A DNA stretch of 56,203 nucleotides from a virus (Duplodnaviria; Heunggongvirae; Uroviricota; Caudoviricetes), in the IMG/VR virus record IMGVR_UViG_2778260992_000008, positions 1 to 56,203 of that record, one strand, 5' to 3'. Shown piece by piece: positions 7,669 through 16,840 of the stretch (its first letter is position 1; every line of letters begins with the position of its first letter). The translations under genes were made by a program, and so were the position numbers. The notes beneath the pieces were generated by a model. The model was not told the origin of the DNA. It did not search any database and saw only the letters and a list, made by a program, of their open reading frames with translations.

Positions 7669-7975
7669 TTGCTTTTCTCCTATGGTTAAAATGAACGCGC
7701 GGGCGGGTATCCCATTAGCATTAGATAGCAGTGATTGACCGCTTAACAGATCCCGCCGTTGCGTGATATTTGTTTTTCGCTTCGCAGCGACACCGGGTTT
7801 TTAAAGAGCTTTAAGGTATGCGCCTTTTTGTGCTATTCCCTTATCTTTTTTCTTGCATCCTTGCAAGTCTGGCTTTACCTTGTCTGCAAGTTTACAGAAT
7901 GGCATTTACAGGTCAAGACTTGAAAAATACATTTTGTGACTTGCATCAAACTTTTTGGGGCGATAGGGTAGCGAC

Positions 7976-8623
7976 ATGAAAACAAAATGGTATGACTTAG
8001 CAAAACAACTCATGCGGGCGCAAGGTATGAGCCAGGATTCATTGGCGGACCTGATGGGGATCACGAAAGGCGGCTTATCGCACTGGCTGAACGGTCGCCG
8101 TGAGCCAAATCTTAATGATATTGCGCGGATCATGCGGGCGCTTGGTCGTCGGCAGTTTACGGTCACACATGATGGGATGGTTATTGATGATTCACTTTCT
8201 AATACACTGCCGGGAGCGCCACCGCTCGACGTAGGGCGTTATCCGGTGATTGACTGGAAAGACGCAGGAAACTACATGGAAGAAGCAAAACGCGCATCAT
8301 TACCGCACGTTAACACTAGCGTGATTTGTTCGGATGATAGTTATTGGCTGGTTGCAAAAGGTGAATCGATGAACGCGCCGCAAGGATTGAGCATCCCGGC
8401 GGGAACGATGATACTTGTTGATCCACACGCGCCAGCTATTGACGGCAAACTGGTTATAGCCCAATTGGAGGAAGGGCAAACGCCGACGTTTAAACAGTTG
8501 ATTATTGATGGAGGTCAAAGGCTTTTACGCTCGCTTAATCCGTTGTATCCACCAATCCCGCTAAATCCTGAATCAAAAATTATTGGCGTGGTGGTGGACG
8601 CGAAGATCGTAAACCTGCCATAA
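7976..8623 (+). CDS. cI-like repressor, HTH plus S24 LexA-type peptidase domain
   Basis: N-terminal HTH (SQDSLADLMGITKGGLSHWLNGRR); C-terminal GESM Ser and FKQL Lys dyad; divergent from replication genes. Confidence 0.85.
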   Translation: MKTKWYDLAKQLMRAQGMSQDSLADLMGITKGGLSHWLNGRREPNLNDIARIMRALGRRQFTVTHDGMVIDDSLSNTLPGAPPLDVGRYPVIDWKDAGNYMEEAKRASLPHVNTSVICSDDSYWLVAKGESMNAPQGLSIPAGTMILVDPHAPAIDGKLVIAQLEEGQTPTFKQLIIDGGQRLLRSLNPLYPPIPLNPESKIIGVVVDAKIVNLP

Positions 8624-8628
8624 ACATT

Positions 8629-8653
8629 AGCCGCCGGATGGCGGCTTTTCTTT
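8629..8653 (+). terminator. rho-independent terminator after repressor gene
   Basis: AGCCGCC-GGAT-GGCGGCT hairpin followed by TTTCTTT. Confidence 0.55.
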
Positions 8654-8732
8654 GCCCGGAAAACACCAAAACGTAAACCGAAAACGGGTTTTATCATTTG
8701 AATATCAATGAGATAGAAAATATTTTAAAAAA

Positions 8733-8775
8733 GTATACAAAATGGATTGACTCGACATATCACAGGGCGTATATT
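8733..8775 (+). promoter_or_regulatory. sigma70-like early promoter with upstream ACAAAATGG element
   Basis: TTGACT (8747-8752), 17-nt spacer, TATATT (8770-8775); GTATACAAAATGGA immediately upstream. Confidence 0.55.
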
Positions 8776-9098
8776 GCGAATCAAAGGAAGGAAGCAGGAA
8801 ACAAAAAGCACCTTCCAGGCACTTTAAAAATCAGGCTTAACACCTTGTCAACCGTGGAGTAACTCCCCGATGTGGGACCGAAAGCGGCACTGATAACAAG
8901 GCGCATGGGGTGTTTAAAGCGTTACATCCCCCACGAAACCGCACGCAAGGCGACGAGTCAGATCACTTGGATTGAGTGGTGTCACACCGGAAACGGCGAT
9001 GATTGCGGGATTAGTTGAACGATGTTAAGCCATTCTCTTTAACAATCTGGTCGCTACTGAAATGTAGCAAACATGATTTTAACTAAGGAGAAAAGATT

Positions 9099-9389
9099 AT
9101 GAATGCGAAGATCATTTACGGTAACTGTGAGAGCAAATTAAATGCACGGAAGCGCCGCCGGATGAAGCGGGCAGCCGAACAAGACGAAGGCCCGCACATA
9201 CAGAAGATTGATAAAGTGGAAAAAGCTATTCGCTTTGCAAATGAGGAAAGATGCAAATCAAATAGCGTTAAAGAACGTCGCAAGGGCGCGACAAAATGGT
9301 ATCAGGAAAATGAAAGCGGCAACTACTTCCACGCAACGCAGCCGCGCCAGCTTGGGGAGATCCCGTTAGATAAAGTTCGATACCATTAA
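9099..9389 (+). CDS. hypothetical basic protein (96 aa)
   Basis: Strong RBS AAGGAGAAAAGATT-ATG; first ORF after a ~320-nt leader. Confidence 0.5.
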   Translation: MNAKIIYGNCESKLNARKRRRMKRAAEQDEGPHIQKIDKVEKAIRFANEERCKSNSVKERRKGATKWYQENESGNYFHATQPRQLGEIPLDKVRYH

Positions 9390-9419
9390 TACAAAATGTA
9401 TACAATCGGAGGTGACATT

Positions 9420-9539
9420 ATGGTTATTCAGGCGCTTCAATTCAAACTGGCAGTAGCGGAAATGCTTCACGATGCCGAAATGTGGAGCGCCGCGAATAAA
9501 GCCTTATACGTAGTGTTAACAGCGAAGGAGATTAAATAG
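9420..9539 (+). CDS. small hypothetical protein (39 aa)
   Basis: RBS GGAGGTGA; stop overlaps the GTG start of erf. Confidence 0.3.
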   Translation: MVIQALQFKLAVAEMLHDAEMWSAANKALYVVLTAKEIK

Positions 9540-16715: not shown

Positions 16716-16840
16716 TAATGGCGCTTTTTACTTTGTTCGGGTGTATCCATTTTGTATACTGCAATCAAACGAAATGCTCTTTAAAAATCCGGCCCCGCTG
16801 AAATGCGGAAACACATCACCTAACAGAATGAGATCAAATT

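What the first reader, a model, noticed from the sequence alone, without database searches (positions are those of the whole stretch)
8776..9098. Untranslated ~320-nt leader between a strong promoter and the first early gene
After the TTGACT-N17-TATATT promoter there is no convincing ORF with an RBS until 9099. The leader contains GC-rich complementary segments (for example CATGGGGTG and CATCCCCCAC) that could form stable structures. This could be an antitermination RNA, a riboregulator or a small RNA.
Basis: inference. Interest (0 to 1): 0.45.

Follow-up and report, generated by a model that had tools for sequence, protein, structure and literature searches.

The report
Phage antitermination leader with structured RNA insert
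The untranslated stretch is the early leader of an mEp021-type E. coli prophage: its last 40 bases are a known antitermination (nut) site for the N-like gene that follows. Its GC-rich middle is an optional, very conserved, folded RNA block of about 200 bases that has not been described and whose function is unknown.

Summary
A 10/12 sigma-70 promoter (8747-8775), invariant in more than 25 relatives, is followed by about 316 nt with no credible gene before the ATG at 9099.

The window is an mEp021-like (mEpimmI) prophage, and the gene at 9099 is the N-like antiterminator Gp17. The leader has two parts:

- **nutR1 (9034-9068), already known.** It has a boxA (CTCTTTAACAA) and a boxB hairpin (GCUAC-UGAAAU-GUAGC). 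It was described for mEp021. Here it is supported by two sister sites in the window (nutL, nutR2) and by boxB stem covariation across Gp17 types.
- **A block of about 200 nt (8834-9031), apparently undescribed.**
  - It is flanked by a second boxA-like repeat (boxA', 8819-8835).
  - It is absent from about a quarter of relatives.
  - It is about 10 times less variable than its flanks.
  - Its changes are in loops, are GU/GC switches, or are compensatory.
  - It is annotated as "gp16" in phage records but does not evolve like a protein.
  - It has no Rfam match and no homolog outside this phage group.

I read the block as a structured RNA expansion inside a nut-type leader. It probably acts in cis on Nus/Gp17 complex assembly or on gp17 expression, but that mechanism is inferred, not shown. 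The antitermination reading is partly right. Interest is moderate.

The parts
8733..8744 (+). GTATACAAAATG 12-mer abutting the -35 hexamer. Possible repressor operator or phage promoter element.
   Evidence: 11 copies in the window at up to 1 mismatch against 0.53 expected. Invariant at this site in all relatives. Function not tested.
8747..8775 (+). Early rightward promoter, TTGACT-17-TATATT.
   Evidence: 10 of 12 matches. Hexamers invariant in the relatives while the spacer varies.
8786..8816 (+). 5' stem-loop of the LONG-form leader (GGAAGG ... CCUUCC).
   Evidence: Predicted. In the L014-type relatives one top pair is lost (8811 C>A) and one bottom pair is gained (8817 A>T). Moderate support.
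8819..8835 (+). boxA' plus spacer: GCACTTTAAAAATCAGG, a fourth boxA-like element.
   Evidence: Matches 10 of 11 positions of the boxA consensus GYTCTTTAANA (PMC5725501). The pattern CWCTTTAAMAAYCNGG occurs exactly 4 times in the window against 0 expected: nutL, boxA', nutR1 and nutR2. It forms a 21-nt direct repeat with 9030-9050. By my count on the alignment, it sits 43-44 nt after the -10, the same distance as the single boxA of SHORT leaders. Invariant in LONG forms.
8834..9031 (+). Conserved structured RNA block, closed by P1 (GGCUUAACA 8834-8842 with UGUUAAGCC 9023-9031). Optional: absent from SHORT-form relatives.
   Evidence: Presence/absence seen. Diversity pi is 0.0065 (8826-8961) and 0.022 (8981-9031), against 0.06-0.09 in the flanks. 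The consensus fold has 61 pairs in 9 helices with 99.6% of cells paired. No Rfam hit. No homolog outside mEpimmI phages.
8907..8930 (+). Helix 5: GGGGUGU - 10-nt loop - ACAUCCC.
   Evidence: The 8927 T>C change in mEp021 turns G-U into G-C. The first and last loop positions (8914, 8923) vary.
8962..8980 (+). Helix 8: the variable hairpin, AUCACU-UGGAUUG-AGUGGU in the window and CUUGCU-UGGAGUG-AGCAAG in the mEp021 type.
   Evidence: Three pairs changed on both sides and one on one side, with 100% of cells paired. Only 7 of 500 shuffles reach 3 double-changed pairs, and slid controls give 0-1.
8981..9003 (+). Helix 9: hairpin with a GNRA loop (CCG-GAAA-CGG; GGAA in many relatives).
   Evidence: 8986 A>G turns an A.C mismatch into G-C. 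8988 C>T gives U-G, which is tolerated only on the + strand.
8905..9018 (+). ORF annotated as gp16 in mEp021 and mEp515 records. Judged non-coding.
   Evidence: About 11 non-synonymous against 3 synonymous changes; stop codon lost in L079; the changes cluster in helix 8, where they compensate each other. No PHROG or Pfam family. Not called by PGAP.
9034..9068 (+). nutR1: boxA (T)CTCTTTAACAA 9034-9045, spacer TCTGGTC, boxB GCUAC-UGAAAU-GUAGC 9053-9068.
   Evidence: Same architecture as nutR2 and nutL in this window. The boxB stem covaries among relatives: GCAC/GUGC, UCGC/GCGA, GCUC/GAGC, GCCGC/GCGGC. nutR1 lies upstream of gp17 in mEp021 (PMC11893012).
9084..9101 (+). gp17 translation start: SD AAGGAG 9085-9090, ATG 9099. 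9084-9092 can pair with boxA 9033-9041.
   Evidence: A 9-bp boxA:SD helix encloses boxB; dG -17.5 kcal/mol, z = -4.0, 0 of 200 shuffles as good. The equivalent helix is predicted for L131. By hand pairing of the L267 sequence, it also forms there, with different flanking pairs. Function is inferred.
9099..9389 (+). gp17 homolog: N-like antiterminator with the arginine-rich motif KLNARKRRRMKR.
   Evidence: PHROG 271, 'anti-termination protein N-like', E = 1.2e-8. Pfam N_peptide match is weak (18.1 bits, below cut-off). R17, R19, R20 and R24 are present, as in PMC11893012.
16776..16810 (+). nutR2, a sister site: GCTCTTTAAAAATCCGGCC + CCGC-UGAAAU-GCGG.
   Evidence: The mEp021 equivalent is shown.
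7775..7809 (-). nutL, a sister site on the - strand: GCTCTTTAAAAACCCGGTGT + CGCU-GCGA-AGCG.
   Evidence: The mEp021 equivalent is shown.

Best explanation
The region is the untranslated leader of the early rightward operon of an mEp021-like (mEpimmI) temperate coliphage.

Order of elements on the RNA:
1. A 5' stem-loop.
2. boxA' (8819-8835).
3. A 198-nt multi-helix RNA domain closed by helix P1 (8834-9031).
4. nutR1, made of boxA (9034-9045) and boxB (9053-9068).
5. The ribosome-binding site and gp17, the N-like antiterminator.

Shown for the close relative mEp021: host Nus factors and Gp17 act at nutR1, nutR2 and nutL to make RNA polymerase read through downstream terminators.

Shown here by comparison of relatives:
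- nutR1 is a real boxA plus boxB site.
- The 198-nt domain is an optional but strongly selected + strand RNA structure, not a protein gene.
- The domain sits between two boxA copies, at the position where the other three nut sites carry only a short boxB hairpin.

Inferred mechanism:
- The domain is a structured expansion of the nut leader. When P1 closes, boxA' ends up about 25 nt from boxB.
- The domain acts in cis. It tunes assembly of the Nus/Gp17 complex on the nascent RNA and, through that, gp17 translation or mRNA stability. The model here is phage lambda, where about 200 nt of highly structured RNA lie between nutL and the N gene and N/Nus binding represses N translation.
- boxA' recruits NusB/NusE early and protects the long untranslated RNA from Rho-dependent termination.
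- boxA of nutR1 can also pair with the gp17 Shine-Dalgarno sequence, which offers a way to couple Nus binding to translation.
For: Identity of the phage:
- 93% identity to mEp021 over 8600-9052, and 100% to a prophage of E. coli RM9245.
- Same gene order as mEp021: repressor, terminator, leader, gp17, Erf, SSB.

Gp17 is N-like:
- PHROG 271 match.
- The arginine-rich motif is conserved (PMC11893012).

nutR1 is real:
- The 16-nt boxA plus spacer pattern occurs 4 times in the window against 0 expected.
- Three of these sites are followed by stem-U-GNRA-U/A-stem hairpins.
- The boxB stem has five different complementary versions among relatives.

The block is a selected RNA:
- It is about 10 times less diverse than its flanks.
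- Inside it, helix 8 differs at 8 of 19 positions yet stays fully paired.
- Every other change is in a loop, is a GU/GC switch, or is a mismatch-to-pair change that fits the + strand.
- The ORF inside it has about 11 non-synonymous against 3 synonymous changes, and one relative has lost the stop codon.

The boxA duplication matters:
- There is a direct repeat flanking the block.
- boxA' is invariant, while the downstream boxA is degenerate in 25 of 29 unique LONG leaders and in 0 of 9 SHORT leaders.

boxA:SD helix: z = -4.0. It is also predicted for L131.

Lambda precedent for a structured leader and N/Nus translational repression: PMC5725501, Discussion.

boxA protection of long untranslated RNA: title and abstract of PMC7665894, as listed (the paper itself was not read).
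Against: - No experiment or transcript data were available for the block.
- Only one helix (helix 8) covaries. All its double changes trace to one split, window type against mEp021 type, so they may be a single event.
- The other eight helices never vary, so their pairing is neither supported nor refuted.
- The block alone does not fold better than shuffles (z = -1.54).
- About a quarter of relatives lack the block and still have Gp17 and nutR1, so it is dispensable for antitermination.
- The block is identical next to two different gp17 start regions. That argues against direct pairing with the gp17 start.
- In lambda the structured RNA lies after the nut site; here it lies before boxB.
- The core of the boxA:SD pairing (CUCUUU with AAGGAG) follows from the two consensus sequences. 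It is not predicted for L003, L134 or the mEp021 type.
Confidence: 0.6

Rival explanations
1. The block is an accessory non-coding RNA that is cut out of the early leader, for example at the A/U-rich single strands on either side of P1. It would then act in trans on a host or competitor target, as a moron-type or anti-defence RNA. Its position in the nut leader would only ensure early, strong expression.
For: - It is optional among otherwise similar phages.
- It is an autonomous fold closed by P1.
- Conservation extends to predicted loops and single strands, which suggests a sequence-specific partner.
- It is identical next to two different gp17/boxB types.
Against: - No terminator or known processing signal lies at its ends.
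- No complementarity beyond chance 10-13-mers to the rest of the phage.
- No family resemblance to known small RNAs.
- It occurs only in this one context.
- The flanking boxA duplication and the relaxed downstream boxA tie it to the nut machinery.
Confidence: 0.22
2. The block encodes the 37-aa protein annotated as gp16 in mEp021 (window 8905-9018).
For: - Annotated as a CDS in the mEp021, mEp515 and MagusPhagus records.
- The ORF is intact in 30 of 31 unique sequences.
Against: - About 11 non-synonymous against 3 synonymous changes.
- Five amino-acid changes cluster exactly where the RNA hairpin changes compensate each other.
- The stop codon is lost in L079.
- The only Shine-Dalgarno-like sequence is AAGG, 3 nt from the ATG.
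- No PHROG or Pfam family.
- Not called by PGAP in nine genomes.
- Conservation also covers 70 nt upstream of the ATG.
Confidence: 0.05
3. The block has no function of its own. It is a leftover of a duplication or insertion between two boxA copies, or it acts as a DNA site, and it looks conserved because it spread recently by recombination.
For: - It is flanked by a 21-nt direct repeat.
- It is present or absent as one clean unit.
- The family is narrow and recent-looking, all in E. coli.
Against: - Low diversity ends sharply at both edges of boxA'-P1 in several lineages. Hitch-hiking would not give sharp edges.
- Helix 8 inside the block has diverged at 8 of 19 positions, so the two block lineages are old. 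The remaining roughly 190 nt nevertheless differ at only a handful of positions.
- The GU/GC substitutions are specific to one strand, which fits RNA and not duplex DNA.
Confidence: 0.08
4. The block is a factor-independent antitermination RNA that binds RNA polymerase directly, like the put RNAs of phage HK022, or it is a giant substitute for boxB paired with boxA'.
For: - It sits just after the early promoter.
- It directly follows a boxA-like element, at the position where the other three nut sites have boxB.
- It is highly conserved.
Against: - The phage encodes an N-like protein and a normal nutR1 right after the block.
- By my recollection of the Valencia-Toxqui 2023 abstract (paper not held), downstream transcripts in mEp021, a LONG-form phage, need Gp17.
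- SHORT-form phages do without the block.
- It is much larger than put RNA, which by my recollection is about 70 nt with two stem-loops. No sequence comparison was possible.
Confidence: 0.05

Closest known systems
nutR1 of coliphage mEp021 (mEpimmI group): Gp17/Nus-dependent early antitermination
   Same: - Same phage group: 93% identity over 8600-9052.
- Same position upstream of gp17.
- boxA plus boxB architecture.
- Three nut sites per genome (nutL, nutR1, nutR2), all found in this window.
   Different: - This window carries a different Gp17 N-terminus (MNAKIIYG...) and a different boxB (GCUAC-UGAAAU-GUAGC, against GCCGC-UGGAAGU-GCGGC in mEp021).
- The accessible literature does not mention boxA' or the 200-nt block, which the mEp021 record annotates as the hypothetical protein gp16.
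Phage lambda pL-nutL-N leader (N/Nus antitermination and N autoregulation through a structured, RNase III-sensitive leader)
   Same: - A long untranslated leader (about 225 nt in lambda, about 316 nt here) between the early promoter and the antiterminator gene.
- A boxA about 35-45 nt from the transcript start.
- About 200 nt of structured RNA between a boxA and the gene.
- An arginine-rich protein that binds a GNRA-like boxB loop.
   Different: - No significant sequence similarity (local alignment p about 0.06).
- In lambda, boxB follows boxA directly and the structure lies between nutL and the N start. Here the structure lies between boxA' and a second, complete boxA plus boxB that sits 17 nt from the Shine-Dalgarno sequence.
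- RNase III cleavage was not tested. The longest helix is 17 bp and irregular.
boxA/Nus-factor complexes on non-coding or leader RNAs (rRNA operons, CRISPR arrays, suhB leader)
   Same: - A near-consensus boxA (10 of 11 positions of GYTCTTTAANA) lies directly upstream of a long untranslated structured RNA whose two ends pair.
- A boxA lies close to a ribosome-binding site, as in suhB.
   Different: - NusB/NusE binding to boxA' was not tested. Its one deviation is at consensus position 3 (T>A), and the effect of that change is unknown.
- This site lies in a phage N-type system with a boxB.
HK022 put RNAs (protein-independent antitermination RNA)
   Same: A structured RNA encoded just downstream of an early phage promoter.
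   Different: - An N-like protein and nut sites are present here.
- The block is about three times larger.
- The block is dispensable in relatives.
- No evidence of RNA polymerase binding.

Membership tests
N-type nut site (lambda-like boxA + boxB) | boxA matching the Nus-factor consensus (GYTCTTTAANA for gamma-proteobacteria; PMC5725501) | tested here: met
   9034-9044 TCTCTTTAACA matches 10 of 11 positions; only position 1 differs. nutR2 and nutL match 11 of 11.
N-type nut site (lambda-like boxA + boxB) | boxB: a short hairpin with a purine-rich GNRA-like loop a few nt after boxA, kept as a hairpin in relatives | tested here: met
   GCUAC-U GAAA U-GUAGC lies 7 nt after boxA. Relatives show five complementary stem versions with the loop UGAAAU/UGAAAA kept.
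N-type nut site (lambda-like boxA + boxB) | A cognate N-like protein with an arginine-rich motif encoded by the phage | tested here: met
   9099-9389 matches PHROG 271, N-like, E = 1.2e-8. The motif KLNARKRRRMKR has R17, R19, R20 and R24.
N-type nut site (lambda-like boxA + boxB) | Gp17- and Nus-dependent read-through of downstream terminators | not testable with these tools
   Reported for mEp021 (Valencia-Toxqui 2023, as cited in PMC11893012). Not tested for this variant boxB/Gp17 pair.
Any described RNA family (Rfam 15), for the 8834-9031 block | A covariance-model match at or near the gathering score | tested here: not met
   No match at gathering threshold in the whole window. At E up to 10 over 8600-9200, no hit falls in the block. 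No tRNA or tmRNA.
Structured functional RNA (generic), for the block | Base pairs maintained by compensatory substitutions | tested here: inconclusive
   Helix 8 has 3 double-changed pairs; 7 of 500 shuffles reach this, and slid controls give 0-1. Eight other helices are invariant. All double changes come from one lineage split.
Structured functional RNA (generic), for the block | Purifying selection beyond the local background that is not explained by coding | tested here: met
   pi is 0.0065 in the block against 0.06-0.09 in the flanks. The ORF shows about 11 non-synonymous against 3 synonymous changes and one lost stop codon.
Small phage protein (gp16) | Coding-type substitution pattern, a ribosome-binding site, and a recognised family | tested here: not met
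   PGAP makes no call here.
Lambda-type RNase III-sensitive N leader | A duplex of about 20 bp or more cleaved by RNase III, lying between the nut site and the N start, so that cleavage uncouples N translation from nut | tested here: inconclusive
   P1 plus its extension is 17 bp with a mismatch and a bulge. It lies upstream of boxB, not between the nut site and the start. Cleavage cannot be tested here.
Mobile repeat (MITE / REP-type element) | Many copies per genome in unrelated contexts | tested here: not met
   One place per genome in 35 of 5426 E. coli genomes, always in this leader. No hits in plasmids. A single hit in the window.
Minus-strand small RNA gene | A conserved promoter and terminator on the - strand | tested here: not met
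   The terminator-like hairpin at 8825-8805 loses two pairs in the commonest relatives (8811 C>A, 8817 A>T). The GU/GC substitutions fit the + strand.

The most novel reading that the evidence does not exclude
boxA' plus the 198-nt domain is a new kind of nut-like module. A large, sequence-specific RNA fold stands where boxB normally is and recruits a partner to the elongation complex. The partner could be RNA polymerase, a Nus factor, Gp17 through its GNRA hairpins, or a host factor. Helix 8, the only part that switches together with the Gp17/boxB type, could be a specificity element. This would add an RNA-based regulatory layer to N-type antitermination.
Probability: 0.15. Interest if true: 0.75.

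Novelty: new variant of a known kind. Interest (0 to 1): 0.5.

Why it matters
N/nut antitermination is a textbook system, but almost all detail comes from lambda and its close relatives. The mEpimmI phages are reported to be as common in human gut samples as lambdoid phages (PMC11893012).

This analysis shows that most of them carry an extra boxA and a strongly selected folded RNA of about 200 nt inside the N-like leader. Current phage records annotate that RNA as a hypothetical protein.

- If the block tunes Nus/Gp17 complex assembly or Gp17 translation, it is a natural, removable experiment on how nut-leader architecture sets the timing of early gene expression.
- If it acts in trans, it is a new phage non-coding RNA.

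Either way, the gp16 annotation should be corrected. The natural LONG/SHORT polymorphism provides ready-made isogenic comparisons.

Tried and rejected
**Searches that found nothing**
- Rfam, whole window at gathering threshold and 8600-9200 at E up to 10: nothing relevant.
- ARAGORN: no tRNA or tmRNA.
- Distant homologs of the block:
  - blastn against phages, E. coli genomes and plasmids.
  - Exact-word scans of IMG/VR, JGI metagenomes and GTDB genomes, filtered with nhmmer.
  - Only near-identical copies in mEpimmI phages turned up. The GTDB hits were a conserved Cytophagales coding sequence.
- Gp17-based searches for more distant leaders:
  - The protein family is narrow: 46 clusters, all at least 63% identical.
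  - A genome-contig scan with the protein found nothing.
  - The most divergent members have SHORT leaders.
- A trans target inside the phage: only chance-level 10-13-mers.

**Readings rejected**
- Minus-strand antisense RNA: the promoter-like site (9028-8999) and the terminator-like hairpin (8825-8805) are weak, and the hairpin is not conserved.
- gp16 as a protein.
- Mobile repeat: single copy, single context.

**Inconclusive or not meaningful**
- Homology with the lambda N leader: a few collinear 7-8-mers, but the local score has p about 0.06 and the global score p about 0.013 against mononucleotide shuffles. Not convincing.
- Link between the helix 9 loop type (GAAA or GGAA) and the boxB type: not consistent.
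- GGA (CsrA-type) motif count: by eye, no more frequent than composition predicts. Not computed.

**Could not be read**
- Valencia-Toxqui 2023 and Wilson 2002 are not held.
Full report
**1. What the window is**

The region 8600-9052 is 93% identical to coliphage mEp021 and 84-91% identical to five other mEp phages and phage MagusPhagus. The stretch 8700-9400 is 100% identical to a prophage of E. coli RM9245, and related prophages occur in 35 of 5426 complete E. coli genomes, once each.

Gene order matches mEp021:
- a LexA/S24-type repressor (7976-8623);
- an intrinsic terminator (8629-8646);
- the leader;
- a 96-aa gene at 9099-9389, followed by a small Kil-like ORF, Erf and SSB.

The 96-aa protein matches PHROG 271, "anti-termination protein N-like" (E = 1.2e-8). 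It carries the arginine-rich motif with R17, R19, R20 and R24. PMC11893012 reports these residues as conserved in Gp17, the experimentally characterised N-like antiterminator of mEp021. The same paper places nutR1 upstream of gp17, nutL upstream of the repressor gene and nutR2 several kb downstream.

**2. The observation**

The promoter TTGACT-17-TATATT (8747-8775) is the best sigma-70 match in the neighbourhood (10 of 12). Its hexamers are invariant in every relative examined, although the spacer varies.

No credible gene lies between it and the ATG at 9099, and PGAP annotates none in nine genomes. The leader as a whole folds better than shuffled versions (z = -2.97).

**3. The 3' end of the leader is nutR1**

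The sequence 9034-9068 reads (T)CTCTTTAACAA-TCTGGTC-GCTAC TGAAAT GTAGC.

- The boxA part matches 10 of 11 positions of the gamma-proteobacterial consensus GYTCTTTAANA (PMC5725501).
- The 16-nt pattern CWCTTTAAMAAYCNGG (boxA plus spacer) occurs exactly four times in the 56-kb window, with none expected by chance.
- Three of the four sites are followed by a short hairpin of the form stem-U-GNRA-U/A-stem:
  - nutL, 7775-7809 on the - strand (CGCU-GCGA-AGCG);
  - nutR1;
  - nutR2, 16776-16810 (CCGC-UGAAAU-GCGG).
- mEp021 has the same nutL and nutR2.
- Across relatives with different Gp17 sequences, the nutR1 boxB stem changes while staying complementary: GCUAC/GUAGC, GCAC/GUGC, UCGC/GCGA, GCUC/GAGC and GCCGC/GCGGC. 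The A-rich loop is kept.

This part of the leader is therefore an N-type antitermination site, already known for the group.

**4. The middle of the leader is a separate, optional block**

Aligning the repressor-to-gp17 interval from 19 genomes shows two leader forms.
- LONG forms are the window, mEp021, mEp515, MagusPhagus and most prophages. mEp010 has the block by blastn.
- SHORT forms are mEp013, mEp044, mEp554 and others, including the most divergent Gp17 types. They lack about 215 nt.

The missing piece is the block 8834-9031. It is closed by a perfect 9-bp helix, GGCUUAACA (8834-8842) with UGUUAAGCC (9023-9031).

Among complete E. coli genomes, 31 hits cover the whole query, consistent with the LONG form (eight of them were confirmed by alignment). 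Four hits cover only 59-64%, as the two confirmed SHORT forms do.

**5. The block is under strong selection as a + strand RNA**

I collected 46 LONG leaders (31 unique over 8700-9110) from GenBank phages, E. coli genomes and IMG/VR.

Diversity:

| Segment | Nucleotide diversity (pi) |
|---|---|
| Block, 8826-8961 | 0.0065 |
| Block, 8981-9031 | 0.022 |
| Upstream region, promoter spacer, first 50 nt of the leader | 0.06-0.09 |

The low-diversity zone begins at boxA' (8819-8820) and ends at the 3' strand of P1.

One hairpin inside the block, 8962-8980, differs at 8 of 19 positions between the window type (AUCACU-UGGAUUG-AGUGGU) and the mEp021 type (CUUGCU-UGGAGUG-AGCAAG). It is fully paired in both. 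Three pairs changed on both sides and one switches between U-A and U-G.

All other variable sites fall into a few classes:
- in predicted loops: 8869-8873, 8914/8923 and 8972;
- in predicted unpaired or unvalidated positions: 8863, 8948, 8955, 8991 and 9018;
- strand-specific wobble or repair changes: 8927 T>C (G-U to G-C), 8988 C>T (C-G to U-G) and 8986 A>G (A.C to G-C);
- breaking a pair in a minority of sequences: 9020, and 8873 in the window itself.

The formal count gives 99.6% of cells paired over 61 pairs, against 39-45% for slid controls. No shuffle out of 500 reaches the covariation score, and 7 of 500 reach three double-changed pairs.

Caveats:
- Eight of the nine helices never vary.
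- The double changes all come from one lineage split.
- The block alone does not fold better than shuffles.

The divergence of helix 8 shows that the two block lineages are old. The near-identity of the other roughly 190 nt therefore reflects constraint rather than recent spread.

**6. The block is not a protein gene**

mEp021, mEp515 and MagusPhagus annotate a 37-aa ORF here, called gp16 in mEp021 (window 8905-9018).
- Across the 31 sequences, about 11 changes are non-synonymous and 3 are synonymous.
- Five amino-acid changes lie exactly in the compensating hairpin.
- One sequence has lost the stop codon.
- There is no PHROG or Pfam family.
- There is no good ribosome-binding site.
- PGAP makes no call.

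**7. A second boxA flanks the block**

The repeat finder reports a 21-nt direct repeat, 8815-8835 (CCAGGCACTTTAAAAATCAGG) and 9030-9050 (CCATTCTCTTTAACAATCTGG), spaced 215 nt apart.
- The left copy, which I call boxA', is the fourth hit of the boxA plus spacer pattern. It aligns with the three nut sites and differs from the nutR2/nutL boxA only at consensus position 3.
- By my count on the alignment, it lies 43-44 nt after the -10, the same distance as the single boxA of SHORT leaders.
- Where the other three sites have a short boxB, boxA' is followed 3 nt later by P1 and the 198-nt domain. Closing P1 would bring boxA' within about 25 nt of the nutR1 boxB.
- boxA' is invariant in LONG leaders. 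The downstream boxA is degenerate in 25 of 29 unique LONG leaders (CTCATTAA or TTCTTTAA) and in 0 of 9 SHORT leaders. This suggests the two copies share the function, although the changes represent only about two independent events.

**8. Possible coupling to gp17 translation**

boxA (9033-9041, UUCUCUUUA) is complementary to the gp17 Shine-Dalgarno region (9084-9092, UAAGGAGAA). The resulting 9-bp helix encloses boxB (dG -17.5 kcal/mol, z = -4.0, 0 of 200 shuffles as good).
- The L131 relative is predicted to form the same helix. By hand pairing of its sequence, L267 can form it too. Their outer pairs (GGCUC or AGCUC with GAGCU) differ from the window's (UUCUC with GAGAA).
- The mEp021 type instead pairs the boxA-boxB spacer (AUCUGGUC) with GAUCAGAU just before the AUG.
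- The helix is not predicted for L003 or L134.
- Its 6-bp core follows from the two consensus sequences. I treat it as a lead, not a result.

The 3' strand of P1 can alternatively pair with boxA. The block's folding state could therefore influence boxA availability. This is speculative.

**9. Distribution and relatives**
- The block has no Rfam match.
- It is not tRNA-like.
- It occurs once per genome and only in this context.
- It has no homolog in 50,697 phage records other than four mEpimmI phages, and none in plasmids.
- Exact-word scans of IMG/VR, JGI metagenomes and GTDB species genomes found only near-identical copies.
- The Gp17 family itself is narrow.
- The lambda N leader shows no significant similarity.

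**10. How it most likely works**

Shown, here and in the literature on mEp021: transcription from the early promoter produces a leader whose nutR1 site, together with Gp17 and Nus factors, makes RNA polymerase resistant to termination.

Inferred:
- The LONG leader is a nut leader with a structured RNA expansion between a boxA and boxB.
- boxA' loads NusB/NusE early. This is the established way in which long untranslated RNAs such as rRNA and CRISPR arrays escape Rho. I cite PMC7665894 for that point by title and abstract only, and PMC5725501.
- P1 closure restores the proximity of boxA' and boxB.
- The domain modulates complex assembly and gp17 expression in cis. This is analogous to the structured roughly 200-nt lambda N leader, through which N and Nus factors repress N translation (PMC5725501, Discussion, citing Wilson 1997 and 2002).

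The main rival is an accessory RNA processed from the leader and acting in trans. The data cannot separate the two. The tight link to the boxA duplication and the relaxed downstream boxA make me favour the cis reading.

**11. Verdict**
- The nut site and gp17 are already known for this phage group.
- boxA' and the conserved structured block are, as far as the held literature and databases show, undescribed, and the block is mis-annotated as a protein.
- I rate the finding a new variant of a known kind, with moderate interest (0.5).

Noticed in passing
window 3975, 5261, 8733, 16679, 16748, 22965, 38276, 38306, 42199, 42266, 51275 (12-mers); related sequence at about 9396-9411: The 12-mer GT(A/T)TACAAAATG occurs 11 times at up to 1 mismatch, against 0.53 expected. 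One copy abuts the -35 of the early promoter. Two flank the region just upstream of nutR2. Three pairs are in inverted orientation 30-70 nt apart. These could be dispersed repressor operators (as in P1 or L5 'stoperators') or a phage promoter element.
   Followed up: partly
window 7775-7809 (-) and 16776-16810 (+): nutL and nutR2 of this prophage were located by the boxA plus spacer pattern and their boxB hairpins (CGCU-GCGA-AGCG and CCGC-UGAAAU-GCGG). They have the same sequences as in mEp021, although nutR1 boxB and the Gp17 N-terminus differ between the two phages.
   Followed up: yes
LONG-form loci, e.g. L013-L016, L001, L005 (equivalent of window 9035-9042): The nutR1 boxA is degenerate (CTCATTAA or TTCTTTAA) in 25 of 29 unique LONG leaders. 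It is consensus (CTCTTTAA) in all 9 SHORT leaders. The upstream boxA' is invariant. This suggests the two boxA copies are redundant.
   Followed up: partly
window 9276-9293 (- strand), inside gp17: A terminator-like hairpin on the minus strand (TGTCGCGCCCTTGCGACG followed by TTCTTTAA) lies inside the gp17 coding region. The same site is annotated as terminator T3 in mEp044 and mEp013. Promoter-like sites on the minus strand lie at 9445-9417 and 9676-9647. Together they could make an OOP-like antisense RNA against the gp17 3' end.
   Followed up: no
window 9420-9539 (+): The small ORF after gp17 (39 aa from the internal ATG) matches PHROG 34942 (E = 6e-29) and, weakly, the Kil septation-inhibitor family. 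Its neighbours in relatives carry a weak Lambda_Kil Pfam mark.
   Followed up: no
window 7976-8646 (+): The LexA/S24-type repressor gene points the same way as the early operon it presumably represses. It is separated from that operon only by an intrinsic terminator (8629-8646) and about 100 nt. Read-through from the repressor transcript would therefore enter the early leader. nutL lies upstream of the repressor gene on the opposite strand.
   Followed up: no
window 8962-8980 compared with 9053-9068, across relatives: Helix 8 is the only variable part of the block. It switches type together with the nutR1 boxB and the Gp17 N-terminus: 3 unique window-type sequences against 28 mEp021-type. Its mEp021-type loop UGGAGUG resembles the mEp021 boxB loop UGGAAGU. 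This could be plain linkage or a shared specificity.
   Followed up: partly
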